A program made the position numbers and the translations under genes. From assembly GCF_963921235.1 (NCBI RefSeq), contig NC_086107.1, forward strand, positions 114,082,001-114,146,000: 64,000 nucleotides of DNA, written 5' to 3'. This document shows positions 11,164-64,000 of the stretch, piece after piece. The first letter of the stretch is position 1. The number at the start of each line of letters is the position of its first letter. This stretch comes from Mobula hypostoma. Its lineage: Eukaryota. The notes under the pieces are model-generated. The model did no database searches. It saw only the letters and a list, made by a program, of their open reading frames with translations, and was not told the origin of the DNA.

Positions 11164-11164
11164 A

Positions 11165-18930: not shown

Positions 18931-18974
<44 letters not shown>

Positions 18975-21934: not shown

Positions 21935-22030
<96 letters not shown>
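21842..22030. repeat. (CA)n microsatellite, right part
   Basis: Directly visible. Confidence 0.95.
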
Positions 22031-22593: not shown

Positions 22594-22624
<31 letters not shown>

Positions 22625-23356: not shown

Positions 23357-23468
23357 AAGAAAGACTCTGACCATGTATCCCATCTACTCTTCCGATGATT
23401 TTATATATTTCTATCAGGTCACCTGTCAGCCTCTGACACTCCGTAGAAAACAACCCAAGGATGTCTAA

Positions 23469-26023: not shown

Positions 26024-27537
26024 CCTTTGTCTATCCTGCCTGTTATTTCCTGAAGGAATTCTAATGGAATTGTCAGACAAGATTTCCCCTTAAGGAAAAC
26101 ATGCTGTCTTTGGCCTATTTTATCATGTGCTTCCAAGTACCTCAAAACCTACCCTTAATAATAGACTCAAATATCTTACCAACCACTGAAGTCAGGCTAA
26201 CAGGACTATAATTTCCTTTCTTCTGCCTCTCTCCCTTCTTAAAGAGTGGAGTGACATTTGCAATTTTCCAGTTCTCCAGAACCATTCCAGATTCTAGTGG
26301 TTTTTGAAAGATCATTACTAATGCCTCCACAATCTTTTCACTAAATTCCTTCAGAACCCTGGGATGAAGTCCATCTGGTCCAGGTGACTTATCCACCTTC
26401 AGAACTTTCAGCTCCCAAGCACTCTCTTCTGTCCCTTGACACTTGCATTTTTGGCATTCAGCAAGTGTTTTCCACAGTGAAGACTGATGAAAAATATTTA
26501 TTAAGTTCATTGGCCATTTCTTTGTCTCTCATTACCACTACTCCAGCATTATTTTCCAGTGGTCCAATATCTGCTCTTTCACTCTTTATATGTATGAAAA
26601 GCTTTTGTATCCTCTTTGATGTTATTGTCTAGCTTGCTTTCATATTCAATCTTTTTATTCTCTATATAAATATTTTTAGTTGCCTTCTGTTGGTTTTAAA
26701 AGCTTTTCACCATTTTTTGTTATATGTCCTCTTTTTGGCTTTGAGTTTCCTTGTCAGCAATGGTTGCATTATCTTCTGCTTAGAACACTTCTTCATCATT
26801 GTGATTGATCTGCTCCTTCCGAATTGCCCCCAGAAACTCCAGATATTGTTGTTCTGGCGTCATCCCTGCTAATGTCCCTTTCCAGTCAAATGTGGCCAAC
26901 TCCTCCCTCAAGGCGCTGTTGCAAACCTTTTCTATTTCCTGTTGAATTTTATATCCCACAACCTGGCTATTGTTTGAGGCCTGAATGTATAAATCCCATT
27001 AGGGTTTTGTCACCGTTGGAGTTTCTTAGTCATAGTCATAGTCATAATTTATTAATCCTGGGTGAAATTGGTTAACTCTACCCACTACAATTTTACATCT
27101 TCTGACCTTATGTCACCTCTTTCTAAGGCTGTGATTTCATTTTGTTACTGAGGTTAAACCTCTGTACAAGGGGTTTGATGTGGAGATTGCTACCATGAAG
27201 AGCTTTCTGATCTTTCAGCCAGGACACTGATGTGTGATAATTTGGGTCTTGTGATACAAGAAACCCAGTCTGTGCAGAGTCCAGGCAAGTGTGATATCTC
27301 AACACAATCTCCATCGCTCACTCTCTGTGATCTAACACTGTTTTTGGTACCAGGAGCGCATCCCTTCTCTAAAATGTTTTTTGAATTGAACATTGAAATA
27401 GAATTTTCATAAGGACGCATAAGGACCCAAAATGTACACAGTCACTCAGATTGCGAGCTCCAGAGAGACCTGGGTGTACACACTCATACACTGGCAGAGA
27501 AATGTGTGAGATGTTCAAACACACAGACACAGACACA

Positions 27538-27580
<43 letters not shown>

Positions 27581-27666
27581 GTACAAACAGACAGACACAC
27601 ACACACACGCGCGTACAAACAGACAGACACACACACACATACACACACACACTCACACTCACACAT

Positions 27667-27714
<48 letters not shown>

Positions 27715-28058
27715 CACACTGTGAAGGTGATGTGAAGCAGCTCATCACAAAGTACAACTCTGGGCTGTGACGACTGCTGCTACCACGTCCCCATCAACAC
27801 TCTGTACGTTATATTTACTCTGCAGTCTAGACTGAATTTCACAAGTTCAGTGCCCCCATCATAGTAACAGAAGTAATATTCCCAGTTAAAGGCCCTTCAG
27901 TACCTGGTCTGAAACATTACCTCTGTTCCACTCTCCCGATTGAGAGAGTTTCTTTAGAACACAGAAGGAACAGGTGCTTCGATCCATCAGCTTTGCCCAC
28001 TCACCCTAAACCTATGCCCTCTAGTACCTGACATTTCCATCAAGGGGAAGAAAGACTC

Positions 28059-28453
28059 ACCTCCAAGCCAACCACGACCCTGTCGAAGGGTTTGGTAGCT
28101 TGCGTGCCCTAATGACCCAGAGAGCTACTCTGGCTGGAGTCAGGGCTTTATGCTTTGGCTCTTGGTGGGGTCACCCATAGCAAACAGGTCAAAGGGTAGA
28201 GGCCAGACTAAGAGTGGTCCACTGACAACCCTGGCTGATCAAACAGAACTGTTACAGAAACAGCAGTGAAGAGCCTTTCTACATCTGAGTGTGACGGTAT
28301 TCCTGAGTCTCCACCCCGAGACTCGCATGAGTGACAGTAGTGAAAACCGAGAGGAAGCCACCGGCATGATGAAGGAAGCCCTGAACACCACCAGAGATGG
28401 GGAACCTTCATTGCTGCCTGAAACACCAGTGGTGTAACGGGCAGTCAGTAAGT
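28059..28453 (+). mobile_element. Short RTE-like element (copy C)
   Basis: Same sequence and AAGAAAGACTC flanks as 22963-23356. Confidence 0.65.
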
Positions 28454-29879
28454 AAGAAAGACTCTGACCATGTATCCCATCTACTCTTCCGATGATTTTA
28501 TATATTTCTATCAGGTCACCTGTCAGCCTCTGACACTCCGTAGAAAACAACCCAAGTTTGTCTAACCTGATCCTGCCAACCCAGGCTGCATTCTAGGGAA
28601 CCTCTTCAGCGACCTCTCCAAAATCTTCACACCCTTCTTGCAAATCAGGGCACCAGCACAGCACACCAAATGTGGCCAAACCAAAGCTTTCGATATTTCC
28701 TCTGGTGTTTGAGTGTAAGATCAGAGGATGCAGCCTTAGAATTGAGGGACATCCATTTAGAATGCAGATGAAAAGGAATTTCTTTAGCCAGAGAGTGAGT
28801 GAAACTGTGGAATTTGTTGGCACAGGCAGCTGTGGAGGCCAAGTCTTTATGTATATTTAAGGCAGAGGTTTACAAAGTCCTTATTGGTCAGGGCATGAAT
28901 TGATAGGGAGAGAAGGCAGGAGATTGGGGCTGAGAGGGAAAATGGATGAGCCATGAAGAAAAGGTGGAGTTGACTCAATAGGCCAAATGGCCTAATTCTG
29001 CTCCTATATCTTATGTTCTTATTATATTCCATCTGCCAATTCTCTGTCCATTCTCCCAATCAGTCTAAGACCTTTTTCAGACACCCTGCTTCCTTCACAC
29101 TACCTGCCCTTCCACCTGTCTTCATATCGTCCACAGGCTGGGCAACAAAGCCATCAATTGCTTCATCTAAATCATTGCCATAACATGTGAAAAGTAGCTG
29201 TCCCAACACTGACCCCTGCAGAACACCATCAGTTACCAGCAGCAAACCAGAAAAGGCTCCCTTTATTCTAACTCTTTGCCTCCTGCCAGGCAGCCAATGT
29301 TCTATCCATGCTAATATCTTTCCTGTAATACCATGGGCTCTTACCTTGTTAAGCAGCCTCATGTGTGGAACCTTGGGCACAGGCCTCCGTGGTATCGAGG
29401 TGCGGTGTCCATTATTAAGGACCCCCATCACCCAACACATTTCCTCTTCTCATTGTTACTGTCAGGAAGGAGATACAGAAGCCTGAAGCAGACACTCAGA
29501 GTTTCAGGGACAACTTCTTCCCCTCTGCTATCTGATTCCTAAATGGGCATTGAACCCATGAACAGTTCCTCACTCTTTAAAATACATATTATTTCTGTTT
29601 TTGCACTATTTTAAATTTAACTGTTTAATATACTTCTATATACTTACTGTCAGTGATGTACTTATTTTTCTCTGAATTGTCATGTATTGCATTGTACTGC
29701 TGCTGCTAAGTTAACAAGTTTCGTGACATATACCAGTGATAATAAACCTGACTCTCCTTTGTCTATCCTGCCTGTTATTCCCTTAAGGAATTCTAATGGA
29801 ATTGTCAGACAAGATTTCCCCTTAAGGAAACCATGCTGTCTTTGGCCTATTTTATCATGTGCTTCCAAGTACCTCGAAA

Positions 29880-31418
29880 CCTAGCCCTGACAGAATATTC
29901 CCCAGGCTGCTCCACGAGGCGAGGGAAGAGATTGCTGAACCTCTGGCTAGGATCTTTATGTCCTCGTTGTCCACGGGAATGGTACCGGAGGATTGGAGGG
30001 AGGCCAATGTTGCCCCTTTGTTCAAAAAAGGTAGTAGGGATAGTCTGAGTAATTATAGACCAGTGAGCCTTACGTCTGTGGTGGGAAAGCTGTTGGATAA
30101 GATTCTTAGAGATAGGATCTCTGGGCATTTAGAGAATCATGGTCTGATCAGGGACAGTCAGCATGGCTTTGTGAAGGGCAGATCATGTCTAACAAGCCTG
30201 ATAGAGTTCTTTGAGGAGGTGACCAGGCATATAGATGAGGGTAGTGCAGTGGATGTGATCTATATGGATTTTAGTAAGGCATTTGACAAGGTTCCACACG
30301 GTAGGCTTATTCAGAAAGTTAGAAGGCATGGGATCCAGGGAAGTTTGGCCAGGTGGATTCAGAATTGGCTTGCCTGCAGAAGGCAGAGGGTGGTGGTGGA
30401 GGGAGTACATTCGGTTTGGAGGATTGTGACTAGTTGTGTCGCACAAGGATTGGTTCTGGGACCTCTACTTTTTGTGATTTTTATTAACGTCCTGGATGTG
30501 GAGGTAGAAGGGTGGGTTGGCAAGTTTGCAGATGACACAAAGGTTGGTGGTGTTGCAGATAGTGTAGAGGATTGTCGAAGATTACAGAGAGACATTGATA
30601 GGATGCAAAAGTGGCAGATGGAGTTCAACCCGGAGAAGTGTGAGGTGGTACACTTTGGAAGGACAAACTCCAAGGCAGAGTACAAACTAAATGGCAGGAT
30701 ATTTGGTAGTGTGGAGGAGCAGAGGGATCTGGGGATACATATCCACAGATTCCTGAAAGTTGCCTCACAGGTGGACAGGGTAGTTAAGAAAGCTTATGGG
30801 GCGTTAGCTTTCATAAGTAGAGGGATAGAGTTTAAGAGTCGCGATGTAATGATGCAGCTCTATAAAACTCTGGTTAGGCCACACTTGGAGTACTGTGTCC
30901 AGTTCTGGTCACCACACTATAGGAAGGATGTGGAAGCATTGGAAAGGGTACAGAGGAGATTTACCAGGATGCTGCCTGGTTTAGAGAGTATGCATGCTGA
31001 TCAGAGATTAAGGGAGCTAGGGCTTTACTCTTTGGAGAGAAGGAGGATGAGAGGAGACATGATAGACGTATACAAGATAATAAGAGGAATAGATAGAGTG
31101 GATAGCCAGCACCTCTTCCCCAGGGCACCACTGCTCAATACAAGAGAATATGGCTTTAAGGTAAGGGGTGGGAAGTTCAAGGGATATTAGAGGAAGGTTT
31201 TTTACTCAGAGATAGGTTGGTGCGTGGAATGCACTGCCTGAGTCAGTGGTGGAGGCAGATACACTAGTGAAGTTTAAGAGACTACTAGACCGGTATATGG
31301 AGGATTTAAGGTGGGGGCTTATATGGGAGGCAGGGTTTGAGGGTCAGCACAACATTTGTGGGCCGAAAGGCCAGTACTGTGCTGTACTATTCTATGTTCT
31401 ATGTTCTATGTTCTATGT
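29880..31418 (+). mobile_element. 5'-truncated CR1 LINE with (TTCTATG)n tail
   Basis: ORF 29859..31190 RT motifs; empty site aaacctacccttaataatagactc at about 26145-26168. Confidence 0.93.
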
Positions 31419-33351
31419 TTAATAACAGACTCAAATAACTTACCAACTACTGAGGTCAGGCTGACAAGCCTATAATTTCCTTTCTTCTGCCTCTCTCCCT
31501 TCTTAAAGAGTGAAGTGACATTTGCAATTTTCCTGTCCTCCAGAACCATTCCAGATTCCAGTGGTTTTTGTAAGATCATTACTAATGCCTCCTCAATCTT
31601 TTCACTAAATTCTTTCAGAACCCTGGGATGAAGTCCATCTGGTCCAGGTGACTTATCTACCTTCAGAACTTTCAGCTTCGCAAGCACTCTCTTCTGTCCC
31701 TTGACACTTGTATTTTTGGCATTCTGCTAGAGTTTTCCACAGTGAAGACTGATGCAAAATATTTATTAAATTCGTTCGCCTTTTCTTTGTCTCTCATTAC
31801 CACTACTCCAGCATTATTTTCCAGTAGTCCAATATCTGCTCTTTTACTCTTCATATGTATGAAAAATCTTTGTATCCTCTTTGATGTTATTGTCTAGCTT
31901 GCTTTCATATTTAATCTTTTTGCTCCATATATATATTTGTTTTTCGTTGCATTCTATTGGTTTTCAAAACTTCCAAATCCTCAGAAAAGCTTCCCACTAT
32001 TTCTTGTTACGTTATGTGTCCTCTTTTTGACTTTGACATCCCTTGTCAGCCATGGTTGCATTATATTCTTTTTAGAATACTTCTTCGTCTTTGTAATCGA
32101 TCTGCTCCTTCCGAATTGCCCCCAGAAACTCCAGACATTGTTGTTCTGGCATCATCCCTGCTAATGTCCCCTTCCAGACAAATGTGGCCAACTCCTCTCT
32201 CCAGGCGCTGTTACAAGCCTTTTCTATTTCCTGTTGAATTTTATATCCCAAAACCCGGCTATTGTTCGAGGCTTATACGTATAAATCCCATCAGGGTCTT
32301 TTCCCCGTTGCACTTTCTTAACTCTACCCATAACGATTCTACATCTTCCGATCTTATGTCACCTCTTTCTAAGACTTTGATTTCATTTTATACCAACAGA
32401 ACAACCCCACCCCGACGTATTACCCACTGGGTTCCAGAGGTGTCTGACTTTCCCAATGTTTCTGACCTCCAGAAACAGCCTGTGAGTCTGGGGAAACGGC
32501 CTGGGGCTGGAAAATTAGCACCATGAATGGACAGCCCGGACCCCACCACACACTCCCTCACTGAGGACTTGACGCTCGAGCAGGTGGGCTCAGCTCGGCC
32601 TGGAAACAAGACAGACACCTGGCTGAAGGTGACCTGGGCCTAAGCTCTCATGTTGGACACTAGGCCCAAACCTGGCTGATGACCAAACTGGGGATCAAGC
32701 CGGAGATCAGTACTGGAGCTTTCAGTCCTGTGTCCCGAGGCCAGCAGAGACAGCAACGGCCAATCCAAGTTTTGGGTTCTGAGCGAATAAAGTGAAAACT
32801 GAGAGCTGGGTAGAGCAGCCCAACAGCACTTGGGCTGAGCTGGAGACAGTCAGCTTCAGGGTAGAACAACGGCTGTGAGCCCAGACATGAGACTGCCAAG
32901 AGGTGATTATGTTGGAGATTGTCAGGCTGACAGTAGAACAAGAGCTCTGAGCAGTCTCAAGGGGAGATCGTTCTGCCAACTGGTGTACTTGGGTGCAGAG
33001 AATGAGCAGTAAAGAAGGCCGAAGCCTGTGACCTGGGCCCAAAATCAGCTTGTAGTCAAAGTTTGACTTAAAAATAAAATTCAAAATAAAACAAGTTATT
33101 TGCACAGCCTCAAACTAATCTCGACCAGCATCAGTGTTGGTGCTGAGGGGCGCGATAATTTAGAGGCAGTGGTTAGCAGGTCTGAAGTCTCAAAAACTGC
33201 AGCATGACACCAGAAAAGTTATAAACAAACAAAAACGAGCAAGGGGGAGAGGAGATAGTGTGGGGCGAAACAGCACCTGGACACAAAAATAACCAGGGCA
33301 CAGAAAGATCAAAATAGCCCACTGCAGAGCAACATAGACAGCAGTGAGGGC

Positions 33352-34891
33352 ACAGGTCTCCCCATGAGGCAGAGAGGGACTGAGAGACACCGGTCAGTGT
33401 ACAGATCTCCCCCTGAGAGAGAGGGACTGGGAGACACCAGTCAGTGTACAGATCTCCCCCTGAGAGAGAGGGACTGAGAGACACCGGTCAGTGTACAGGT
33501 CTCCCCCTGAGAGAGAAGGACTGAGAGACACCGGTCAGTGTACAGATCTCCCCCTGAGAGAGAGGGACTGAGAGACATGGTCAGTGTACAGATCTGTCTC
33601 TGAGAGAGAGGGACTGAGAGACACCGGTCAGTGTACAGATCTCCTGCTGAGAGAGAGGGACTGAGAGACACCGGTCAGTGTACAGATCTCCCCTGAGAGA
33701 GAGGGACTGAGAGACATGGTCAGTGTACAGATCTCCCCCTGAGAGAGAGGGACTGAGAGACACCAGTGAGTGTACAGATCTCCCCCTGAGAGAGAGGGAC
33801 TGAGAGACACCGGTCAGTGTACAGATCTGTCTCTGAGAGAGAGGGACTGAGAGACATGGTCAGTGTACAGATCTCCCCCTGAGAGACAGGGACTGAGAGA
33901 CACCGGTGAGTGTACAGATCTCCCCCTGAGAGAGAGGGACTGAGAGACATGGTCAGTGTACAGATCTGTCTCTGAGAGAGAGGGACTGAGAGACACGGGT
34001 CAGTGTACAGATCTCCCCCTGAGAGAGAGGGACTGAGAGACACCAGTCAGTGTACAGGTCTCCCCCTGAGAGAGAGGGACTGAGAGACACCGGTCAGTGT
34101 ACAGATCTCCCCCTGAGAGAGAGGGACTGAGAGACATGGTCAGTGTACAGATCTCCCCCTGAGAGAAAGGGACTGAGAGACACTGGTGAGAGTACAGATC
34201 TCCCCCTGAGAGTGAGGGACTGAGAGACACCGGTCAGTGTACAGATCTCCCCCTGAGAGAAAGGGACTGAGAGACACTGGTGAGAGTACAGATCTCCCCC
34301 TGAGAGTGAGGGACTGAGAGACACCGGTCAGTGTACAGATCTCCCCTAAGAGAGAGGGACTGAGAGGCACGGGTCAGTGTACAGATCTCCCCCTGAGAGA
34401 GAAGGACTGAGAGACACCGGTCAGTGTACAGATCTCCCCCTGAGAGAGAGGGACTGAGAGACATGGTCAGTGTACAGATCTGTCTCTGAGAGAGAGGGAC
34501 TGAGAGACACGGGTCAGTGTACAGATCTCCCCCTGAGAGAGAGGGACTGAGAGACACCAGTCAGTGTACAGATCTCCCACTGAGAGAGAGAGACTGAGAG
34601 ACACTAGTCAGTGTACAGATCTCCCCCGTGAACGAGGGACTGAGAGACACTGGTCAGTGTACAGATCTCCCCCTGAGAGAGAGGGACTGAGAGACACCAG
34701 TCAGTGTACAGATCTCCCCCTGAGAGAGAGGGACTGAGAGACACCGGTCAGTGTACAGTTCTCCCCCTGAGAGAGATGGACTGAGAGACACAGTCAGTGT
34801 ACAGATCTCCCCTTGAGAGAGAGGGACTGAGTGACACCAGTCAGTGTACAGATTTCCCCCTGAGAGAGAGGGACTGAGAAACACCGGTCAG
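33352..34891 (+). repeat. 47-bp satellite array
   Basis: Tandem ccggtcagtgtacagatctccccctgagagagagggactgagagaca; period 47 (cagtgt at 33395 and 33442) with 46-bp variants. Confidence 0.97.
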
Positions 34892-36291
34892 CATATTTCC
34901 CTCTAAGCTCTGCGTCACACACACGTTTTTCAACCAACGCAGAAAAGAAATTAATGTGCGCACAAAAGGTTTGTTACCTAAAATAATGTCGTAATTAATA
35001 ATTATACTTATTGAGAATAATCTTTTAGCTGACTGTTTCTGTTAGGTAGTTAGTTGGTTTTTCAAATACCACAATGTGCGTCACTAATTTACGTCGCCTT
35101 ACCTTTCCTGTTCTGGTTTGTACAGCTGCATCACGGCGGCAGCCATGTTTGGCGGACAGTGTTCATATTGTAAAGTTTACAAAGATCTGTTTCAAATCCT
35201 GTCGATAGCTCATTATCAGAAAAAATACTGATTCACAAAGTCGAATGCAAAAGAAGCGAAGGGCATGAAGCGCAAAAGAACCGCAAATTTGTTTAAAGTT
35301 GAATGGCTTCACAAAATAGTAGAAACTGCTACACCGAAAGCTCATGAGGTCATGAACATTCAGCTACAAGAAATATTTATGTGTGATTCTGAAACTGGAG
35401 TTATCTGTTTGTATTATCATGATGTGAAAGTTGCTGGGAATTTGCTAGTGGAAAGAAGTGGGATGATATTTGGAAACTTGACTTTTTGAAGCATCATTTG
35501 GCAAGTAAATCGCATTTGGACGGTGTACAAAAGCTCAGGCAACAGAACCTGTCATTACCCCTTACTGGAGTGCTACGCATGTTACAGTTGAGTGCAGATG
35601 AGCGAGAGCGAAAACCTAGAGGAGGTCAAAGTTGACGTTCAAGAATGGTCAGCTTTTGATTCCTTCGCAATTGCAGATTGTGACTTCACATTTGGCGATG
35701 AACCAGTTAATGCCTTATTTCTAAAATATCATGATTTTCTAGCTAAAAATACTGTAATAGTTATATAGTTTAATGATTTCAACTTTTCCGTGCAAGAAAA
35801 AATTAAATCCAAACCAATTTCAAACTATGCTCAAATGGTGGCATTTGTACTTCAAAATGAACAGTTTTGCGACCATGCACAGCTGATGGTCATTGGGGGA
35901 ACCTTTTTTACGTCTAGTGCTGACTGTGAGCGAGTTTATAGCCTAATGAATCAACTCAAAAACAAGCTGAGAAACCTTTTAGGTGAATGTCATTTGGATA
36001 TGTTAATGACAATCAAAAGCTATCAACTGGATGGAAGTTCTATTAGTCGAGATTGAGTTTACAAAGAATGGGTAAATGCCAAAGACAGGAGAGAGATAAA
36101 GTAACTCAGTTACTTAAATATGTAAGTTATTTTCTTGTTATTCTGTGCAGTTTTATGTCAAATATTTTGTAAACCTGCATAAACTGTACCATGTGTGCAT
36201 TCAGTGCGCACATACTGTTGTCACAGGAAAAACATTTGCAAAACATAATATTTTTGCGCACACTGACTACTAAAAATTAGAGTGAACATTG
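34892..36291 (+). mobile_element. Internally deleted hAT DNA transposon
   Basis: 8-bp direct repeat CCGGTCAG (34884-34891, 36292-36299); imperfect TIRs catatttccctctaa / ttagagtgaacattg; C-terminal SSADCERVYSLMNQLKNKLRN hAT dimerisation-like motif. Confidence 0.88.
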
Positions 36292-36665
36292 CCGGTCAGT
36301 GTACAGATCTCCCCCTGAGAGAGAGGGACTGAGAGACACCGGTCAGTGTACAGATCTCCCCTGAGAGAGAGGGACTGAGAGACACCGGTCAGTGTACAGA
36401 TCTCCCCCTGAGAGAGAGGGACTGAGAAACACCGGTCAGTGCACAGATCTCCCCTGAGAGAGAGGGACTGAGAGACACCGGTCAGTGTACAGATCTCCCC
36501 CTGAGAGAGAGGGACTGAGAGACACCGGTCAGTGTACAGATCTCCCCTGAGAGAGAGGGACTGAGAGACACCGGACAGTGTACAGATCTGTCTCTGAGAG
36601 AGAGGGACTGAGACATGGTCAGTGTACAGATCTCCCCTGAGAGAGAGGGACTCAGAGACACCGGT
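36292..36665 (+). repeat. 47-bp satellite array
   Basis: About 8 monomers continuing after the hAT element. Confidence 0.96.
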
Positions 36666-37324
36666 GAATATTTGGCTGCCAGTTGCCACTGGGATTTCTC
36701 CGTCACTTTTTATTTTTGAAAGGCTTTGTCTTTAAAATTGGTGTCTCATGTTGAGTCATTTCACCTTTAAAACAGGCTAACAGTTTCTGGATGGGGAGGG
36801 ATGGATTCTGTAGGAATTCCAGATAGAGCAATGTCTTCTTTCATTGAGATTCTTAATGTGGGACGCGTCTCTTTCAATGGGGTCTCTGTTAATGAGAGTT
36901 CCCATCTTTAATCGGGATATCTTCTGATGTGAAGCCCCGCCTAAACAGGGTTTGTTACTGAGTACAAGGGGTTTGATGTGGAGATTGTTTCAATCAAGAG
37001 TTTTCTGATCTTTCAGCCCAGGACACTGATATGTGATACTTTGAGTGTTGTGATACGAGAACCCAGTCAGTGCAGAGTCCAGGCAAGTGTGATATCTCAT
37101 CACAATCTCCATCGCTCACTCTCTGTGGTCTAATACTGTTCTTGGTACCAGGAGCACATCTCTTCTCTAGAATGTTCTTTGAATTGAACATTGAAATAGA
37201 ATTTTCATAAGGACCTGAAATGTACGCAGTCACTCAGATTGAGAGCTCCAGAGAGACCTGGGTGTACACACTCAAACACTGGCAGAGAAATGTGTGTAGA
37301 TGTTCAAACACACACAGACACACA

Positions 37325-37363
<39 letters not shown>

Positions 37364-37718
37364 ACACACACACTCACACTGTGAAGGTGATGCGAAGCAG
37401 CTCATCACAAAGTACAACTCTGGGCTGTGACTACTGCTGCTACCACGTCCCCATCAACACTCTGTACGTTATATTTACTCTGCAATCTAGACTGAATTTC
37501 ACAAGTTCAGTGCCCCCATCGAAGTAACAGAAGTAATATTCCCAGTTAAAGGCCCTTCAGTACCTGGTCTGAAACATTATCTCTGTTCCACTCTCCCGAT
37601 TGAGAGAGTTTCTTTAGAACACAGAAGGAACAGGTGCTTCGATCCATCAGCTTTGCCCGCTCACCCTAAACCTATGCCCTCTAGTACCTGACATTTCCAT
37701 CAAGGGGAAGAAAGACTC

Positions 37719-50025: not shown

Positions 50026-50067
<42 letters not shown>

Positions 50068-52352: not shown

Positions 52353-53172
52353 TCTGTGTCGGGTGCTTCCAGCACCAATTTTTTTTTTCTTTCTGGTGTT
52401 TTTTTTTAAAATAAACCTTTTACTATCGTGCGATGAAGGTTTTTTATAAGTCCAAGATTTTTGTTCTTTGTTTATTACTGTAGTTGTTATTCTATTACTT
52501 GTATAGAATACTTATCTCCTGTGAATAACATCATTTTCCTTTAGTTAACCTTTTGTTTTAACTTTTCCTTTTTCATTATCATTAATGATCTGATCTGACG
52601 ATCATTTTTGGTTGTATGTTTCCTATTTTTGGTTTTCGCATAATTAAAATGGCCACTTGTCTTTCTTTTTGTATAACCTCCTTTGTTTTTTTTCGGGACG
52701 CCATGTTCTTATGCTTCTTCTTCCCATAGTCCTTTTTCCCTTTTAGAAGCGATTTTTTATTTACTCGTCTATAACTAATTATACGTATTGACTAAGTTTT
52801 TTTTATTTCATATATTTTAGTAATTTTTACTATGTAGACTAATTAATATACTGGTTATTTTTTACATATATTAGTCTCTGGGAGGTCACCTATTTAACAT
52901 TTATTTTTGGAGTTGCCCCCTGAAGAAATGGGGTTAGAGTTAGTTTTAGTTAGAGCTTTCTTCAGCCTTCTTTGGCTTATTTGGGGTTCTTGGGGTTGGG
53001 GGATGGGATAGTCTTTTTCTTTTCTAATTTTTTCTGTTGGGCTGATTTAGAACTACAAAGATGTCCACAGCGTCAAGATTTTCGGTTCCTCTCTAATCAT
53101 GTATTCCTCTTCCGATTTCATGAGAACACATTATGGTTAACCCCTTACTCACCAAAGGGTTAATTCTCAATT

Positions 53173-56100
53173 ATAGCTCATACTATTAATTTTGTCTCTT
53201 GGAATACAAATGGTTTAAACCATCCAATAAAACGGAAAAAGGTTTTCAATGTGTTCCAAAGACTGAATGCTCATATTATTTTTGCACAAGAGACTCATGT
53301 AAGGAAAGAGGACAATCAACGCTTCTTTAAGTTTTGGAAAGCATAACAATACCACTCAAATGCTCAAGCCAAAATTAAAGGCGTTTCAATTTTTATTGAT
53401 CCTTCAATTACATTTATTCATCAAGACATTATTTCGGATCCTAATGGCAGATTTCTGTTCATTACTGGGGTACTTTTTAATAAAAAGGTCGCTATGGTTA
53501 ATGTTTACGCTCCGAATGTGGATTATCCTGAATTTTTTAAACACTGATTCACTTCCTTTCCTAACTTAAACGAGCATATGTTGATAATGGGCGGTGATTT
53601 TAATTTATGTTTGAATCCCATGTTGGACAGATCCATAGCTAGTCCGGCTTTACCGAATAAGTCGGCTACTATTATTAACTCTTTTATGTTGGATTCTGGG
53701 ATTTCAGAAATTTGGAGATTTCTACATCCAAATGATAAGGAATTCTCCTTTTTTTCACATGTTCATCATTCTTTTTCCCGAATTGATTATTTCTTGATTG
53801 ACTCTCGTTTGATTCCATATGTAGTTGATTGTAATTATGACAGTATTGTTATTTCAGATCATGCTCCAATGAAACTTTCCATCAAGTTAATGGACACCTC
53901 TTGTACTAGCAGACAATGGCGATTTAACCCTATTTTGCTTCACGATCAGGACTTTGTCAAATTTATAAAGGAGCAGATTGATTTCTTCTTTTCAACTAAT
54001 GCTACGGAAGAAGTTTCCAATGGAACTGTTTGGGACACCTTTAAAGCTTATATCCAAGGTCAGATTATTTCCTATTCGGCTGGTTTGAAAAGACGTGTTA
54101 ACAATGAAATACTTTTGTTGGTTGATAAAATTAAAGAAGTCGATAAAAAATATGCTATTTCTCCCAGTAAGGAGCTGTACAAACACAGAGTTGAACTCCA
54201 ATTGGAACATAGCTTATTATTAACATCCTCCATCGAAAATCAATTAATGAGAACTAGAAGTGATTTTTATATTCATAGCGATAAATCGGGTAAATTACTG
54301 GCTAACCAATTGAAATTTGATTCGGTTAAACATCAAATTACTAAGATTCGCAAACAGGATGATACTTTCACAGTTGATCATGCTGGGATAAACCAAACCT
54401 TTCAAGAATTTTATACCTCTTTATATCACTCTGATTTTCCTCATGATTCTAATTTCATGCATGATTTTTTAAGTAAATTGAGTTTTCCGAAATTATCACC
54501 TGAAGAGTCCCTATCATTAGAAACTTCCATTTCAGAGGAAGAAATAATAACTGCAATCTCATCATTGAATTCCGGTAAAGCACCCGGTCCGGATGGGTTT
54601 ACAGTGGAATTTTTAAAAATTTTTTCCTCCATTCTTTCTTCTAAGTTGTCTAGAGTATTCAAGGAAGCAATCAGTTTAGGTAAATTACCACAATCGTTTT
54701 ACGAAGCCTCTATTTCCTTAGTTCTTAAAAAGAATAAAGATCCTACTGATTGTGCATCATACAGACCGATATCTCTTCTGAATGTAGATTCTAAAATTTT
54801 TTCAAAAATTCTAGCAACTAGATTGGAGAAGGTGTTACCTCAAATTATTTCTATGGATCAAACTGGATTTATTAAAAATCGCTATTCATCCTTTAATATT
54901 AGGAGGTTAATGAATATTGTTTATACCCCCTCATTTACTACCCCGGAATGTATTATCTCTTTAGATGCTGAGAAAGCCTTTGACAGAGTTGAATGGCCTT
55001 ATTTATTTAATGTTCTTGAGAAATTTAATTTTAATTTGACATTTATATCTTGGATTAAATTGTTATATTACTCCCCGGTAGCCTCGGTTTGTACAAATAA
55101 TTATAGATCTTTTTTTCGTCTTTTTCATGGCACTAGGCAAGATTGCCCTCTTAGTCCTTTACTATTCAATATTGCTCTTGAACCTTTAGCAATTGCTATT
55201 CGTGACTCGCCAAATATTGTTGGTATTACCCGTGGAAACGAAATACATAAATTATCATTATATGCAGATGATTTGTTGTTATACATCTCTAACCCGGAGA
55301 AGTCAATTCCTGCTATCTTAGATCTGTTAGCTCAATTTAGTAACTTCTCTGGTTACAAATTGAATCTTAATAAGAGTGAATTATTCCCTTTAAATAAGCA
55401 TGTACCTACTTATGGACGTTTACCATTTAAATTGGTTACTGATTCATTTATATATTTAGGGATAACAATTACGAAAAAATATAAAGATTTATTTAAAGCT
55501 AATTTTTTACCTTTAATTGATCAGATTAAACTTTTATTTACCAAATGGTCGCCAATCTCTTTATCTTTGATTGGTCGGATTAATGCTACTAAGATGATCA
55601 TTTTGCCCAAATTTTTGTATATATTCCAATCGGTTCCAATTTTCATCCCAAAATCTTTTTTTGATAATGTAGATTCACAAATTTCCTCATATATTTGGCA
55701 GAATAAAAATCCTAGGTTAGGTAAAAGGTATCTACAGAAATCTAAAAAGGAGCGGGAGCTCGCCCTCCCGAATTTTAGATTTTATTACTGGGCAATTAAT
55801 ATTCGATATTTAAAATTTTGGTTACGAGATCTGGAAGTATCTTTAAACCCTCATTGGGTAAATCTTGAATCTAATTCATTACAAGAGTTTTCCTTGGGTT
55901 CGGTTTTAGGAACTTCACTTCCTTTTACTCTTTTACATTATATAAACAAATGAATAACCCAATAGTTAAGCATACTTTACATATATGGTTTCAATTCCGA
56001 AGATTTTTTGGGTTTAATCAATTTATTGTAGCAAGCCCCATTATATCAAATTTTCTTTTTCAACCTTCCACGATGGATCAAGCTTACTTTGATTGGAAAA

Positions 56101-56951
56101 CCAAAGGTATAATATCTTTTCACGATTTATTTTTGGATAATTGTTTTATGTCTTTTGATCAACTCTCTAATAAATATAACTTACCCAGATCTCACTTTTT
56201 TAGATATTTACAGATTAGAAACTTTTTAATTACTGTTTCCCCTAATTTTCCACACCCATATCCAATGGACATTTTGGAAAAAATCTTAGATTTAAATCTC
56301 TCTCAGAAAAGTGTAGTAGCAATTATATATAATATAATTATGAATTTATGTCCTGATGCTTCTAATAAAATTAAAGCTGACTGGGAAAGAGAACTTGAGA
56401 TTAATATACCGACTGATAAATGGGAAGAAATTCTTCAGTTGGTGAATTCATCCTCTGTATGTGCTAAGCATAGGTTGATACAGTTTAAAGTAGTGCACAG
56501 GCCTCATATGTCCAAAGATAAACTATCTCGTTATTACTCTTATATTAATCCAATATGTGACAGATGTCACTCCGAGATAGCTTCTTTAACCCACATGTTT
56601 TGGTCATGTCCTCTGGTGGAGAAATATTGGAAAGATATTTTTGATATTATTTCAACGGTCTTAAATATAGACTTACAACCTCATCCAATTACTGCTATCT
56701 TTGGACTACCAATGATAGACTGAAATAATTTAACCTCTTCATCATGAAGGATGATTGCATTTCTTACTTTAATGGCTAGAAGGTCCATTTTGTTGAATTG
56801 AAAAGAGATCAACCCTCCTAAGGTATTTCATTGGTTTTCACAAACTATGGTGTATTTGAATTTGGAGAAAATTAGAAGTGCAGTTTATGACCCTTCCATT
56901 AAGTTTGAAAAAACTTGGAGGCCATTCATTCAGCATTTTCACTTGATGTAA
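53173..56951 (+). pseudogene. L1 ORF2 with stops and frameshifts
   Basis: SWNTNGLNHPIKRKK, QETH, NVYAPN, GGDFN, SRIDY, SDH, KAPGPDG, YADD and CDRC...HMFWSC; largest piece 53578..55953. Confidence 0.9.
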
Positions 56952-59900
56952 TTTGATCATTTCCAAACTTGTTTTATCTCTCTGTACTGTTGTTGGAGGG
57001 GAATGGAGTCGTCGACACTAAGGTTTTCTTCCTTTCCATTTTTAAGTTGTTAGTTTTGCCCAAGTCTTTTAGTTTAGTTGATTAATTTTGTTTTTTTTGG
57101 GGGGGGATGGGGTTTGTTTTTTTTTGGTTTTGTTTTTTTTTCTTTTTCATGATTTTTTTTCAGTTTTTTTTTGATTTGTATTATCCGTTGTTAGTTCTAC
57201 ATGATTGGGAGCTTTGTTAACTTACACTATTTGATTTTACAATTACTTTTCTTAACTGTAACAATATATCTCCTACTATTTGTATTATTGCTGTTTCGTT
57301 TCTATATTTCAAAATTAATAAAAAGATTGAAAAAGAAAGAAAGATTCTTAGAGATAGGATCTATAGGCATTTAGAGAATCATGGTCTGATCAGGGACAGT
57401 CAGCATGGCTTTGTGAAGGGCAGATTGTGCCTAACAAGCCTAATAGAGTTCTTTGAGGAGGTGACCAGGCATATAGATGAGGGTAGTGCAGTGGATGTGA
57501 TCTATATGGATTTTAGTAAGGCATTTGACAAGGTTCCACACGGTAGGCTTATTCAGAAAGTCAGAAGGCATGGGATCCAGGGAAGTTTGGCCAGGTGGAT
57601 TCAGAATTGGCTTGCCTGCAGAAGGCAGAGGGTGGTGGTGGAGGGAGTACATTCAGATTGGAGGATTGTGACTAGTGATGTCCCACAAGGATCTGTTCTG
57701 AGACCTCTACTTTTCGTGTTTTTTATTAACGACCTGGATGTGGGGGCAGAAGGTTGGGCTGGCAAGTTTGCAGACGACACAAAGGTTGGTAGTGTTGTAG
57801 ATAGTGTAGAAGATTGTCAAAGATCGAGAGAGACGTTGATAGGATGCAGAAATGGGCTGTGAAGTGGTAGATGGAGTTCAACCCGGAGAAGTGTGAGGTG
57901 GTACACTTTGGAAGGACAAACTCCAAGGCAGAGTACAAACTAAATGGCAGGATACTTGGTAGTGTGGAGGAGCAGAGGGATCTCAGGGTACATGTCCACA
58001 GATCCCTGAAAGTTGCCTCACAGGTGGATAGGGTAGTTAAGAAAGCTTATGGGGTGTTAGCTTTCATAAGTCGAGGTATAGAGTTTAAGAGTCACGATGT
58101 ACTGATGCAGCTCTGTAAAACTCTGGTTAGGCCACACTTGGAGTACTGTGTCCAGTTCTGGTCGCCTCACTATAGGAAGGATGTGGAAACATTGGAAAGG
58201 GTACAGAGGAGATTTACCAGGATGCTGCCTGGTTTAGAGAGTATGCATTATGATCAGAGATTAAGGGAGCTAGGGCTTTACTCTTTGGAGAGAAGGAGGA
58301 TGAGAGGAGATATGATAGAGGTGTACAAGATAATAAGAGGAATAGATAGAGTGGATAGCCAGCGCCTCTTCCCCAGGGCACCACTGCTCAATACAAGAGG
58401 ACATGGCTTTAAGGTAAGGGGTGGGAAGTTCAAGGGGGAAATTAGAGGAAGGTTTTTTACTCAGAGAGTGGTTGGTGCGTGGAATGCACTGCCTGAGTCA
58501 GTGGTGGAGGCAGATACACTAGTGAAGTTTAAGAGACTACTAGACAGGTATATGGAGGAATTTAAGGTGGGGGCTTATTTGGGAGGCAGGGTTTGAGGGT
58601 CAGCACAACATTGTGGGCCAAAGGGCCTGTATTGTGCTGTACTATTCTATGTTCTATGTTCTATGTTCTATGTTTAGTAACAGACTCAAATAACTTACCA
58701 ACTACTGAGGTCAGGCTGACAAGCCTATAATTTCCTTTCTTCTGCCTCTCTCCCTTCTTAAAGAGTGGAGTGACATTTGCAATTTTCCTGTCCTCCAGAA
58801 CCATTCCAGATTCCAGTGGTTTTTGTAAGATCATTACTAATGCCTCCTCAATCTTTTCACTAAATTCTTTCAGAACCCTGGGATGAAGTCCATCTGGTCC
58901 AGGTGACTTAGCCACCTTCAGAACTTCCAGCTTCGCAAGCACTCTCTTCTGTCCCTTGACACTCACATTTTTGGCATTCTGCTAGTGTTTTCCACAGTGA
59001 AGACTGATGCAAAATATTTACTAAGTTCGTTCGCCATTTCTTTGTCTCTCATTACCACTACTCCAGCATTATTTTCCAGTGGTCCAATATCTGCTCTTTT
59101 ACTCTTTATGTGTATGAAAAACCTTTGTATCCTCTTTGATGTTATTGTCTAGCTTGCTTTCATATTTAATCTTTTTGCTCCATATATATACTTTCTTTTA
59201 GTTGCTTTCTATTGGTTTTAAAATCTTCCAAATCCTCAGAAAAGCTTCCCACTGTTTTTTATTATATTATATGTCCTCTTTTTGGCTTTGACTTCCCTTG
59301 TCAGCCATGGTTGCATTATATTCCGTTCAGAATACTTCTTCACCTTTGTGATTGATCTGCTCCTTCCAAATTGCCCCCAGAAACTCCAGACATTGTTGTT
59401 CTGGCATCATCCCTGCTAATGTCCCCTTCCAGACAAATGTGGCCAACTCCTCCCTCAAGGTGCTCCTACAAGCCTTTTCTATTTCCTGTTGAATTTTATT
59501 GCTATTGTTCGAGGCCTATATATGTATAAATCCCATCAGGGTCTTTTCACCGTTGCAGTTTCTTAACTCTACCCACAACAAGTCTACATCTTCCGATCTT
59601 AAGTCACCTCTTTCTAAGACTTTGATTTCATTTTATACCAACAGAGCAACCCCACCCCGACGCATTGCCCACTGGGTTCCAGAGGACTCTGACTTTCCCA
59701 ATGTTTCTGACCTTCTGAGTGTGGGGAAACGGGCTGGGGTTCGGAAATTAGCACCATGAATGGACAGCCCAGACCCCACTACACACTCTCTCACTGAGGA
59801 CTTGACGCTCGAGCAGGTGGGCTCAGCTCGGTCTGGAAACAAGACAGACACCTGGCTGAAGGTGACCTGTGCCTGAGGTCTCGTGTTGGACACTAGGCCC

Positions 59901-60583
59901 AAAGCTGGCTGATGACCAAACTGGGGATCAAGCCGGAGATCAGTACTGGAACTTTCAGTCCTGTGTCCCGAGGCCAGCAGAGACAGCAACGGCCAATCCA
60001 GGTTTTGGGTTCTAAGCGAATAAAGTGAAAACTGAGAGCTGGGTAGAGCAGCCCAACAGCACTTGGGCTGAGCTGGAGACAGTCAGCTTCAGGGTAGAAC
60101 AACGGCTGTGAGCCCAGACATGAGACTGCCAAGAGGTGATTATGTTGGAGATTGTCAGGCTGAGAGTAGAACAAGAGCTCTGAGCAGTCTCAAGGGGAGA
60201 TCGTTCTGCCAACTGGTGTACTTGGGTGCAGAGAATGAGCAGCAAAGAAGGCCGAAGCCTGTGACCTGGGCCCAGAACCAGCTTGTAGTCAATGTTTGAC
60301 TTAAAAGCAAAATTCAAAATAAAACAAGTTATTTGCTCAGCCTCAAACTAATCTCTACCAGCATCAGTGGCAGTGCTGAGGGGTGCAATAATTCACAGGG
60401 AGTAGTTAGCACGTCTGAAGTCACAAAAACTACAGCGTGACACCAGAAAAGTTATAAATAAACAAAAACGAGCAAGGGGGAGAGGAGAGAGTGTGGGGCG
60501 AAACAGCCCAGGCCACAACACTAACCAGGGCACAGAAAAATCAAAATAGCCCACTGCAGAGTAACATAGACAGCAGTGAGGGC

Positions 60584-60711
60584 ACAGGTCTGCCCATGAG
60601 GCAGAGAGGGACTGAGAGACACCGGTCAGTGTACAGATCTCCCCTGAGAGAGAGGGACTGAGACACACTGGTCAGTGTACAGATCTCCCCCTGAGAGAGA
60701 GAGACTGAGAG
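60584..60711 (+). repeat. 47-bp satellite array start
   Basis: About 3 monomers before the CR1 insertion. Confidence 0.92.
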
Positions 60712-63071
60712 TGACCAACTAGAGGGGATGCAATATTGGATCTCCTGTTAGGAAACGAATTAGGGCAAGTGACGGAAGTCTGTGTAGGGGAGCACTTTGG
60801 TTCCAGGGATCATAACGCCATTAGTTTCAATTTGATCATGGACAAGGATAGATCTGGTCCTAGGGTTGAGTTTCTGAACTGGAAGAAGGCCAAATTTGAA
60901 GAAATGAGAAAGGATCTAAAAAGCGTGGATTGGGACAGGTTGTTCTGGCAAAGATGTGATTGGTAGGTGGGAAGCCTTCAAAGGGGAAATTTTGAGAGTG
61001 CAGAGTTTGTATGTTCCTGTCAGGATTAAAGGCAAATTGAATAGGAATAAGGAACCTTGGTTCTCAAGGGATATTGCAACTCTGATAAAGAAGAAGAGGG
61101 AGTTGTATGAAATGTATAGGAAACAGGGGGTAAATCAGGTGCTTGAGGAGTATAAGAAGTGCAAGAAAATACTTAAGAAAGAAATCAGGAGGCTAAAAGA
61201 AGACATGAGGTTGCCTTGGCAGTCAAAGTGAAGGATAATCCAAAGAGCTTTTACAAGTATATTAAGAGCAAAAGGATTGTAAGGGATAAAATTGGTCCTC
61301 TTGAAGATCAGAGTGGTTGGCTTTGTGTGGAACCAAAGGAAATGGGGGAGATCTTAAATAGGTTTTTTGCGTCTGTATTTACTAAGGAAGCTGGCATGAA
61401 ATCTATGGAATTGAGGGAATCAAGTAGTGAGACCATGGCAACTGTACAGATTGAAAAGGAGGAGGTGCTTGCTGTCTTGAGGAAAATTAAAGTGGATAAA
61501 TCCCCGGGACCTGACAGGGTGTTCCCTCGGACCTTGAAGGAGACTAGTGTTGAAATTGCGGGGGCCCTGGCAGAAATATTTAAAATGTCGCTGTCTACGG
61601 GTGAAGTGCCGGAGGATTCGAGAGTGGCTCATGTTGTTCCGTTGTTTAAAAAAGGATCGAAAAGTAATCCGGGAAATTATAGGCCGGTGAGTTTAACGTC
61701 AGTAGTAGGTAAGCTATTGGAGGGAGTACTAAGAGACAGAATCTACAAGCATTTGGATAGACAGGGGCTTATTAGAGAGAGTCAACATGGCTTTGTGCGT
61801 GGTAGGTCATGTCTGACCAATCTGTTGGAGTTTTTCGAGGAGGTTACCAGGAAAGTGGATGAAGGGAAGACAGTGGATATTGTCTACATGGACTTCAGTA
61901 AGGCCTTTGACAAGGTCCCGCATGGGAGGTTAGTTAGGAAAATTCAGTCGCTAGGTATACATGGAGAGGTGGTAAATTGGATTGGACATTGGCTGGATGG
62001 AAGAAGCCAGAGAGTGGTGGTAGAAATTGCTTCTCTGAGTGGAGACCTGTGACTAGTGGTGTGCCACAGGGATCAGTGCTGGGTCCATTGTTATTTGTCA
62101 TCTATATCAATGATCTGGATGATAATGTGGTAAATTGGATCAGCAAGTTTGCTGATGATACAAAGATTGGAGGTGTAGTAGACAGTGAGGAAGGTTTTCA
62201 GAGCCTGCAGAGAGACTTGGACCAGCTGGAAAAATGGGCTGAAAGATGGCAGATGGAGTTTAATACTGACAAGTGTGAGGTATTGCACATTGGAAGGACA
62301 AACCAACGTAGAACATACAGGGTTAATGGTAAGGCACTGAGGAGTGCAATGGAACAGAGGGATCTGGGAATACAGATACAAAATTCCCTAAAAGTAGCGT
62401 CACAGGTAGATAGGGTCGTAAAGAGAGCTTTTGGTACGTTGATCTTTATTAATCGAAGTATTAAGTATAAGAGCTGGAATGTTATGATGAGGTTGTATAA
62501 GGCATTGGTGAGGCCGAATCTGGAGTATTGTGTTCAGTTTTGGTCACCAAATTACAGGAAGGATATAAATAAGGTTGAAAGAGTGCAGAGAAGGTTTACA
62601 AGGATGTTGCCGGGACTTGAGAAACTCAGTTACAGAGAAAGGTTGAATAGGTTAGGACCTTATTCCCTGGAGCGTAGAAGAATGAGGGGAGATTTGATAG
62701 AGGTATATAAAATTATGATGGGTATAGATAGAGTGAATGCAAGCAGGCTTTTTCCACTGAGGCAAGGGGAGAAAAAAACCAGAGGACATGGGTTAAGGGT
62801 GAGGGGGGAAAAGTTTAAAGGGAACATTAGTGGGGGCTTCTTCACACAGAGAGTGGTGGGAGTATGGAATGAGCTGCCAGACGAGGTGGTAAATGTGGGT
62901 TCTTTTTTAACATTTAAGAATAAATTGGACAGATACATGGATGGGAGGTGTATGGAGGGATATGGTCCGTGTGCAGGTCGGTGGGACGAGGCAGAAAATG
63001 GTTCGGCACAGCCAAGAAGGGCCAAAGGGCCTGTTTCTGTGCTGTAGTTTCTATGGTTCTATGGTTCTATG
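60712..63071 (+). mobile_element. 5'-truncated CR1 LINE with (TTCTATGG)n tail, inserted in satellite
   Basis: ORFs 60736..60966, 60956..61231, 61216..62052 and 61977..63047; splits gactgagag/acactgg. Confidence 0.94.
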
Positions 63072-64000
63072 GACACTGGTTAGTGTACAGATCTCCCTCT
63101 GAGGGAGAGGGACTGAGAGACACCGGTCAGTGTACAGATCTCCCTCTGAGAGCGAGGGACTGAGAGACACTGGTCAGTGTACAGATCTCCCCCTAAGAGA
63201 GAGGGACTGAGAGACACCGGTCAGTGTACAGAACTCCCCCCAAGAGAGAGGGACTGAGAGACACTGGTCAGTGTACAGATCTCCCCCTGAGAGAGAGGGA
63301 CTGAGAGACACCGGTCAGTGTACAGAACTCCCCCCAAGAGAGAGGGATTGAGAGACACTGGTCAGTGTACAGATCTCCCCCTGAGAGAGAGGGACTGAGA
63401 GACACCGGTCAGTGTACAGATCTCCCCTGAGAGAGAGGGACTGAGAGACACCGGTCAGTGTACAGATCTCCCCCTGAGAGAGAGGGACTGAGAGACACCG
63501 GTCAGTGTACAGATCTCCCCCTGAGAGCGAGGGACTGAGAGACACTGGTCAGTGTACAGATCTCCCCCTGAGAGAGAGGGACTGAGAGACACCGGTCAGT
63601 GTACAGAACTCCCCCCAAGAGAGAGGGACTGAGAGACACTGGTCAGTGTACAGATCTCCCCCTGAGAGACACCGGTCAGTGTACAGAACTCCCCCCAAGA
63701 GAGAGGGATTGAGAGACACTGGTCAGTGTACAGATCTCCCCCTGAGAGAGAGGGACTGAGAGACACCGGTCAGTGTACAGATCTCCCCTGAGAGAGAGGG
63801 ACTGAGAGACACCGGTCAGTGTACAGATCTCCCCCTGAGAGAGAGGGACTGAGAGACACCGGTCAGTGTACAGATCTCCCCCTGAGAGAGAGGGACTGAG
63901 AGACACCGGTCAGTGTACAGATCTCCCCTGAGAGAGAGGGACTGAGAGACACCGGTCAGTGTACAGATCTCCCCCTGAGAGAGAGGGACTGAGAGACACC
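63072..64000 (+). repeat. 47-bp satellite array, open at window end
   Basis: Tandem monomers to the last base. Confidence 0.97.

What the first reader, a model, noticed from the sequence alone, without database searches (positions are those of the whole stretch)
27141..64000. Composite ~10-kb macrosatellite built from TE debris, unassigned blocks and satellite arrays, with insertions recording its history
Seen: three tandem long units plus copies A and B share block order. The RTE-like and old Rex/CR1 pieces are in all copies; the 1.5-kb CR1 is in C, D and E but not A or B; the hAT is in C and D; private inserts mark A (CR1), B (Rex), D (CR1, Penelope) and E (L1, CR1). Inference: a repeatedly amplified segment with a readable insertion chronology. 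Prediction: a third hAT copy flanked by CCGGTCAG lies roughly 0.5 kb beyond the window end. I cannot tell whether the unit has a function or has been described.
Basis: partly seen in the sequence, partly recalled or inferred. Interest (0 to 1): 0.7.

Follow-up and report, generated by a model that had tools for sequence, protein, structure and literature searches.

The report
Low-copy tandem duplication of transposon debris
A roughly 10-kb stretch of old jumping-gene fragments and a short satellite was copied a handful of times side by side in a ray-like fish genome, and later insertions mark part of that history; this is real but an ordinary, already described kind of repeat with no sign of a gene or function.

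Summary
The repeat is real. Three tandem long units (core about 9.7 kb) and two partial copies share block order, and every listed insertion is present. Three corrections. (1) Copy A keeps only 43 of 409 bp of the RTE piece, and A and E lack parts of the old debris. (3) The chronology is only partly readable: AB|CDE has 96% bootstrap, but the blocks are mosaic (C-D 1.2-9.9%; recombination test p=5e-5). Contig depth over the unit-specific blocks is roughly 3-6 times single-locus depth, matching the 4-5 copies in the window. So this is a low-copy, 4-6% diverged, CpG-poor tandem segmental duplication, not a large homogeneous macrosatellite. No Pfam, Rfam, tRNA or credible protein relative was found for the unassigned blocks, and they show no codon bias. 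The third-hAT prediction is plausible but untested. Closest precedent: gene-free TE-composite megasatellites of the human genome (PMC2588610), including one with satellite blocks and an inversion. Low interest.

The parts
27141..36940 (+). Long unit C: U1-(CA)n-U2-RTE piece-old LINE debris-CR1-M3-U3-sat47[hAT]-X; a recombinant whose U1 is of the short-unit type (B-C 3.7%)
36941..49612 (+). Long unit D (core about 9.68 kb plus private CR1 and Penelope)
49613..64000 (+). Long unit E, cut by the window end; deletion of about 640 bp at 50949/50958; private L1 and CR1
22195..27140 (+). Short unit B (period 5096 bp): lacks U3, sat47, X and the 1.5-kb CR1; carries the (TAGTCA)n insert and a private Rex-type LINE
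12120..18641 (-). Inverted copy A: U3 and about 4.5 satellite monomers joined by 6-bp microhomology to M2-M3-U1-U2; ends 43 bp into the RTE piece
18642..22197 (+). Inversion junction (about 18642-18659) and remnant A': U1 piece, (CA)n interrupted by a Penelope and LTR-like pieces, 30 bp of U2, M3 tail
27141..27518 (.). Unassigned block U1 (5 full or near-full copies plus one piece)
   Evidence: no Pfam hit
27720..28039 (.). Block U2 (5 copies plus a 30-bp piece); its right end is a CR1 3' fragment
28050..28458 (+). Short RTE-like element inside a CR1 3' fragment, 11-bp target-site duplication (TSD) AAGAAAGACTC; whole in B, C, D, E. The RTE label rests on recalled sequence style, not on a database hit
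   Evidence: no Pfam hit
29887..31418 (+). 5'-truncated CR1-type LINE shared by C, D (39548-43175, interrupted) and E (51596-58673, interrupted)
32416..33335 (.). Unassigned block U3 (C, D 44045-44961, E 59661-60567, A partial); quiet core at 32676-32976; degenerate 72-bp internal repeat
33336..34891 (+). 47-bp minisatellite array before the hAT in C, about 33 monomers, fading into U3 through a diverged first monomer
34892..36291 (+). 1.4-kb decayed hAT-like element in C, TSD CCGGTCAG
   Evidence: no hAT Pfam hit
36292..36674 (+). 47-bp array after the hAT in C
36675..36940 (.). Unassigned block X (2 copies: here and from 49364)
40565..42651 (+). Private CR1 in D, 4.2% from the private CR1 of A (same family, separate insertion)
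44962..46523 (+). 47-bp array before the hAT in D, with its own variant pattern
46524..47940 (+). hAT-like element in D, 5.5% from the copy in C
48375..49297 (-). Private Penelope piece in D's satellite, 12-bp duplication TCAGTGTACAGA
51873..57340 (+). Private L1 in E, flanked by a 65-bp duplication (51808-51872 and 57341-57405, 2 mismatches)
60718..63071 (+). Private CR1 inside E's satellite
63072..64000 (+). 47-bp array of E, running off the window
13850..16720 (+). Private CR1 in A with an 894-aa open frame
23469..24835 (+). Private Rex-type LINE in B

Best explanation
A low-copy tandem segmental duplication (a small TE-composite 'megasatellite') with no function needed. An ordinary TE-laden segment of about 6.7 kb, containing unique blocks U3, X, U1, U2 and a locus-born 47-bp minisatellite, was duplicated in tandem. 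One lineage lost U3-satellite-X by a 3-bp microhomology deletion and gained a (TAGTCA)n insert (short units A, A', B). The other gained the 1.5-kb CR1 and then the hAT (long units C, D, E; about 9.7 kb). Unequal crossing-over and gene conversion between neighbours multiplied and partly homogenised the copies, and C is a short/long recombinant. Further microhomology deletions and one inversion trimmed A, A' and E. Each satellite array turned over on its own, and six private retrotransposon insertions came last. Shown: anatomy, junctions, shared and private markers, mosaicism. Inferred: the order of events, the recombination mechanism, neutrality.
For: Block map and periods. Reciprocal markers for AB versus CDE and tree support of 96. 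The M3-U3 junction keeps more of the old CR1 than the M3-U1 junction, so the short form is the derived one. Microhomologies TTT, CTGCCC and ACC at deletion junctions. Block heterogeneity (C-D p=3.8e-10) and clustering of compatible sites (p=5e-5). Depth in run X1 of 75-123 over the five U3 bins and 117-127 at U2 sites, against 21-26 for four contigs read as single-locus; TE bins reach 1e4-1e6. No Pfam match at E<0.1 for 20 open frames and 18 read-through frames of the unassigned blocks. No Rfam match at gathering score and no tRNA. No codon-position bias (p 0.61-0.96). Precedent in PMC2588610.
Against: One 240-bp contig at depth 4.3 in a run guessed to be RNA lies on U3. U3 has a 300-bp core with 12 variable columns of 300 against 78 of 783 overall (p=3e-4 within the block), and one minus-strand frame there has 5 silent changes of 12. 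None of nine dated insertions falls in the unique blocks (about 19% of the unit; chance about 0.15 by hand). The tool states that summed contig depth is not a copy number, and the single-locus baseline is my reading of a few contigs. No read or contig spanning a unit junction was seen. The array runs off the window, so its full length is unknown.
Confidence: 0.76

Rival explanations
1. The unit carries a host element (non-coding RNA, regulatory region or decayed exons of an orphan gene) in U3-sat47-X-U1-U2, and the duplication is a small gene or pseudogene cluster.
For: RNA-type contig on U3 32875-33114. Quiet U3 core. A 98-102-codon minus frame open in all 4 copies and a 130-codon frame open in 3 of 4. 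The 47-bp monomer read on the minus strand looks like a branch point plus a pyrimidine tract plus AG (sequence; consensus recalled). U3 is retained in organisms B and C.
Against: Equally quiet 300-column windows occur in TE debris (RTE piece 8-12, M2 12). No codon bias. No structure covariation (0 of 94 pairs). Three word-index protein searches, two Atlas searches and three PDB searches gave nothing credible. The two phmmer hits are summed weak repeats in unrelated proteins. The RNA contig has no joint or loose end and is under depth 5. Organism C has a 2-bp insertion at 33010.
Confidence: 0.12
2. A true macrosatellite of tens to hundreds of units, collapsed in the assembly or continuing far beyond the window, with heterochromatic or centromere-like behaviour.
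For: Head-to-tail C-D-E with a constant core period; the array leaves the window; assemblies commonly under-count such arrays (PMC4063668, passages).
Against: Depth over U2/U3 is only about 3-6 times single-locus depth. Neighbours are 4-6% diverged with private inserts. CpG observed/expected is about 0.3.
Confidence: 0.07
3. Assembly artefact: haplotypes or noisy reads of one locus laid end to end.
Against: Copies differ by substitutions with few indels (C-D U3: 43 substitutions, 2 indels) and by distinct kilobase inserts with target-site duplications. Copy-specific alleles of A and D recur in an independent look at run X1, and the depth is multi-copy.
Confidence: 0.03
4. The unit moves as a composite mobile element, or the hAT targeted the satellite twice independently, so shared inserts do not mean shared descent.
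For: The target CCGGTCAG occurs 54 times on the + strand, all in the arrays.
Against: Both hATs have the same 1.4-kb structure, orientation and array position, and their 5.5% divergence equals that of flanking U3 (5.5%). No terminal repeats or target duplication bounding a unit were seen at the unit junctions.
Confidence: 0.02

Closest known systems
Gene-free TE-composite megasatellites of the human genome (Warburton et al. 2008, PMC2588610, Table 2D class; 12 passages and section 7 read): the ~6-kb 4p11 unit with LINE, LTR and DNA-transposon pieces plus ~1.6-kb ACRO satellite blocks; the 5.4-kb 19q13 unit
   Same: Multi-kilobase tandem unit made of accumulated TE fragments with an embedded satellite block of about 1.6 kb, no gene, and an inversion within the array.
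   Different: Here there are about 4-6 copies by depth, units of unequal length in two lineages, 4-6% divergence, and no evidence of spread to other chromosomes (not tested); the host is a cartilaginous fish.
MaLR LTR arrays of human chromosomes 13, 18, 21 (same paper, passages)
   Different: Those arrays have regular higher-order repeats on many chromosomes; here there is no higher-order regularity, and conversion blurs the order.
Classical macrosatellites D4Z4, DXZ4, NBL2 (PMC5687341, 12 passages; PMC8122249, 3 passages)
   Same: Kilobase-scale head-to-tail units.
   Different: Those span hundreds of kb, are CpG-rich and often transcribed, with 11-150 or 12-100 copies; this array is about 52 kb in view, CpG-poor and low-copy.
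Tandem segmental duplications with non-allelic recombination and microhomology-mediated rearrangement (own knowledge, recalled)
   Same: More than 1 kb, more than 90% identity, few copies, mosaic blocks, microhomology junctions, an inverted copy.
   Different: No gene core was found.

Membership tests
TE-composite gene-free megasatellite (PMC2588610 Table 2D) | At least three similar interspersed repeats at similar spacing of 1.5 kb or more, in tandem | tested here: met
   C, D, E: core period 9660 and 9682 bp; criterion from the paper's methods passage
TE-composite gene-free megasatellite (PMC2588610 Table 2D) | Unit built of a repeating pattern of TE fragments | tested here: met
TE-composite gene-free megasatellite (PMC2588610 Table 2D) | No gene in the unit | tested here: inconclusive
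   All family and homologue searches negative, but one weak RNA-type contig lies on U3 and no annotation was available
Classical macrosatellite (D4Z4/DXZ4/NBL2 type) | Array spanning hundreds of kb, tens to hundreds of copies | tested here: not met
   Depth about 3-6 times single-locus depth (rough, contig-based); the right end of the array is not visible
Classical macrosatellite (D4Z4/DXZ4/NBL2 type) | CpG-rich | tested here: not met
   CpG observed/expected 0.29-0.37 in C, D, E, against 0.37 in the left flank
Classical macrosatellite (D4Z4/DXZ4/NBL2 type) | Frequently transcribed | tested here: inconclusive
   One contig at depth 4.3 in one run guessed to be RNA
Classical macrosatellite (D4Z4/DXZ4/NBL2 type) | Copy number varies between individuals; regulated by methylation | not testable with these tools
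   No population raw reads or methylation data
Tandem segmental duplication (definition recalled) | More than 1 kb and more than 90% identity, low copy | tested here: met
   94.0-95.8% identity over 2.1-7.0 kb of aligned blocks in all 10 pairs; depth
hAT transposon (the 1.4-kb insert) | 8-bp target-site duplication and short terminal inverted repeats | tested here: met
   CCGGTCAG on both sides; 11 of 15 terminal matches in C
hAT transposon (the 1.4-kb insert) | hAT transposase domain | tested here: inconclusive
   No hAT Pfam hit in 4 read-through frames; the C-terminal stretch resembles the dimerisation motif from recall only

The most novel reading that the evidence does not exclude
The unique core U3-sat47-X-U1-U2 is a transcribed host element, apparently near single-copy in one related species, that was amplified to 4-6 copies in two others, with the 47-bp minisatellite grown from its splice-site-like sequence. 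The TE insertions would then date a lineage-specific dosage expansion of an unknown ray gene or non-coding RNA.
Probability: 0.1. Interest if true: 0.5.

Novelty: new member of a known kind. Interest (0 to 1): 0.2.

Why it matters
It is a tidy local example of how TE debris and a minisatellite become a tandem array, and of how conversion limits insertion-based dating. No description of such a locus in a shark or ray turned up in my paper searches. But the class, including satellite blocks, inversion and ordering by insertions, has been described in humans since 2008, and nothing here points to a function. It would matter more only if the unique core proved to be an expressed element.

Tried and rejected
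Whole genome: none held, so flanks, the third hAT and other copies could not be read. Rfam: 0 at gathering score over 64 kb; 0 on U3 at E<=1; 3 chance hits, E 0.67-0.76, on X-U1-U2. tRNA: 0. Pfam on unassigned blocks: best E 0.18-0.36. Word-index protein searches: U1-X frame, near lengths, 0 of 8 candidates; U3 130-aa frame, longer lengths, 0 of 1089; X-satellite frame, 0 of 8000. Only 3 of the many frames could be searched this way. phmmer of the 122-aa U3 frame gave 2 hits, an unnamed protein with many Ig/BNR-type repeats and a BRCA2-repeat protein. They hit different parts of the query, through many weak repeats; rejected as chance. ESM Atlas: no usable hit twice. PDB: best E 0.35. My guesses from recall that the blocks were MHC/Ig, NLR/LRR or PNMA-gag exons found no support. 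RNA structure of the U3 core: 0 of 94 pairs covary. Satellite 36-mer in metagenome contigs: 0. The RNA-type run had no cover on the first U2 bin and on 3 of 5 U3 bins (no evidence). The empty-site joint 29873-31468 appears in three DNA runs but is what any intact member of that high-copy CR1 family gives, so it was not used. Earlier-finding look-ups by place near and by sequence: 0. Paper searches with 0 results. Absolute dating was dropped: only the abstract and outline of PMC10587355 were seen (7e-10 per base per generation in a shark), with no generation time or ray rate.
Full report
Setting. The window is animal DNA dense in CR1-, L1-, Rex- and Penelope-type fragments. Unchecked earlier notes on the same genome call it a devil ray; I did not verify the species. 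A preprint on mobulid genomes (10.64898/2026.10.27.761883; 12 passages seen) reports L2/CR1/Rex as the main LINE family in batoids. It has 0 occurrences of 'segmental duplication', 2 of 'tandem' and 1 of 'satellite'; its supplements were not seen and may bear on repeat annotation. No whole genome is held.

Anatomy. Self-BLAST with satellites masked and a block-by-block map give the unit order U1-(CA)n-U2-RTE piece-old LINE debris (M1, M2)-CR1-M3-U3-47-bp array[hAT]-X. U1, U2, U3 and X are the unassigned blocks, about 1.9 kb together. C, D and E are head to tail. The C-to-D period is 9660 bp and the D-to-E period is 12685 bp, or 9682 bp without D's two private inserts. B is a 5096-bp unit, A is inverted, and between them lie an inversion junction and a further remnant A'. 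The duplicated cluster therefore runs from 12120 to beyond 64000.

Insertions. The 1.53-kb CR1 is in C, D and E, with empty sites in A and B. The hAT-like element sits at the same monomer phase after 1556 bp (C) and 1562 bp (D) of satellite, with the 8-mer CCGGTCAG duplicated. The two copies are 5.5% apart, like the flanking U3, which fits one insertion copied with the unit. D's CR1 and A's CR1 are 4.2% apart but have different insertion sites; D's Penelope has a 12-bp duplication; E's L1 has a 65-bp duplication with 2 mismatches. The RTE piece has an 11-bp duplication in B-E, but A keeps only 43 of its 409 bp, and M1 is in 3 of 5 copies. 'In all copies' is therefore too strong.

Two lineages. 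A, A'/B and B/C share a junction in which M3 runs straight into U1 through a TTT overlap. The long units keep more of the old CR1 before U3, so the short form is a deletion. A, A' and B also share a 46-52-bp (TAGTCA)n insert that is absent from C, D and E. With the CR1, these are reciprocal markers. Other junctions show CTGCCC and ACC overlaps, pointing to microhomology-mediated joining (inference).

How readable is the history? Overall pairwise divergence is 4.2-6.0%. The concatenated tree of the five blocks present in all copies gives (A,B) versus ((C,E),D), with support 96 and 78. The deep split agrees with the CR1. The distance is soft, because each array has its own variant pattern. Against a single tree: divergence is heterogeneous across blocks in 9 of 10 pairs at p<0.05 (C-D from 1.2% to 9.9%, p=3.8e-10). 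Only 16 of 59 informative sites support AB, and 0 of 16 do so in U1 (Fisher p=0.003). Neighbouring sites are more compatible than shuffled ones (0.39 versus 0.57, p=5e-5). The copies are mosaics, and C's U1 comes from the short lineage.

Copy number and age. I laid 27723-33340 only (U2 to U3 of copy C) on four contig sets. In run X1 (organism A, the best holder) the five U3 bins have summed depth 75-123 and U2 sites 117-127. Four contigs that I read as single-locus have depth 21-26, one of them identical to copy C over 155 bp. That is roughly 3-6 copies, against 4 (U3) and 5 (U2) in the window; TE bins reach 1e4-1e6. The tool warns that such sums are not copy numbers, so only the order of magnitude is claimed. 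Organism B has up to 7 contigs at U3 sites. Organism C has one 729-bp U3 contig, 44 differences from C, at a depth (52) like its other listed contigs (42-71), and a contig across the U2-RTE junction. So the segment and its RTE insert predate these species, and the amplification may be later than the split from C (inference, weak). Alleles specific to A and to D recur in X1, and C-D differences are substitutions with few indels, which argues against an assembly artefact.

Is there a gene? No Rfam family at gathering score and no tRNA were found. There is no Pfam match below E 0.18 in 20 open frames and 18 read-through frames of the unassigned blocks. Nothing credible came from three word-index searches, one phmmer search, two Atlas and three PDB searches; these covered only some frames. 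Variable sites show no codon-position bias. For the other side: U3 has a quiet 300-bp core (12 variable columns, p=3e-4 within U3), a minus frame there has 5 silent changes of 12, and one 240-bp contig at depth 4.3 in a run guessed to be RNA lies on U3 and matches none of the four copies exactly at the six sites checked. But TE-derived blocks have equally quiet windows (8-12 per 300), as conversion tracts would give, and the contig shows no joint. CpG observed/expected is about 0.3.

Comparison. PMC2588610 (12 passages and section 7 read) describes gene-free megasatellites made of repeating TE patterns. They include a ~6-kb unit with LINE, LTR and DNA-transposon pieces, ~1.6-kb satellite blocks and an internal inversion, and the paper orders the history of another array by a later LTR insertion and unequal crossing-over. 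This locus meets that paper's detection criterion. It does not meet the size and CpG features that PMC5687341 lists for classical macrosatellites (passages), although the loosest definition, a unit of 100 bp or more (PMC4063668, passages), would admit it. Searches for a shark or ray description returned nothing relevant (listings only, apart from the papers named above).

Verdict. A real, low-copy, mosaic tandem duplication of TE debris with a locus-born 47-bp minisatellite: a new member of a known kind. Interest 0.2. The most novel open reading, an amplified expressed host element, gets probability 0.1.

Noticed in passing
window 4517-6544 and 7154-11164: Two L1 copies of one family face away from each other, 95.8% identical over 2.0 kb; the right one has long open frames. 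No shared target duplication was seen at the outer ends.
   Followed up: partly
window 51808-51872 and 57341-57405: The L1 in E is flanked by an unusually long 65-bp duplication; E is 1.8% from C on the left side of the L1 and 5.7% on the right, so a crossover or conversion boundary lies near it.
   Followed up: partly
window 13948-16632: CR1 with an 894-aa open frame holding endonuclease and RT domains, 4.2% from the truncated copy in D.
   Followed up: partly
window 33336-34891 and the other 47-bp arrays: The monomer read on the minus strand resembles a branch point, pyrimidine tract and AG; each array has its own higher-order variant pattern; three separate insertions (hAT, Penelope, CR1) landed in these arrays.
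   Followed up: partly
window 32841-33033: Degenerate three-copy repeat with 72-81-bp spacing inside U3.
   Followed up: partly
window about 20965-21180 and 21244-21840: Two pieces bounded by short inverted ends (TGTAAC...GTTACA; TGTCG...CGACA) that look like solo LTRs, next to a Penelope copy within an interrupted (CA)n tract; label from recall.
   Followed up: no
window 19288-20912: Penelope-type piece with a 410-aa open frame and a GIY-YIG hit, 6.0% from the copy inserted in D.
   Followed up: partly
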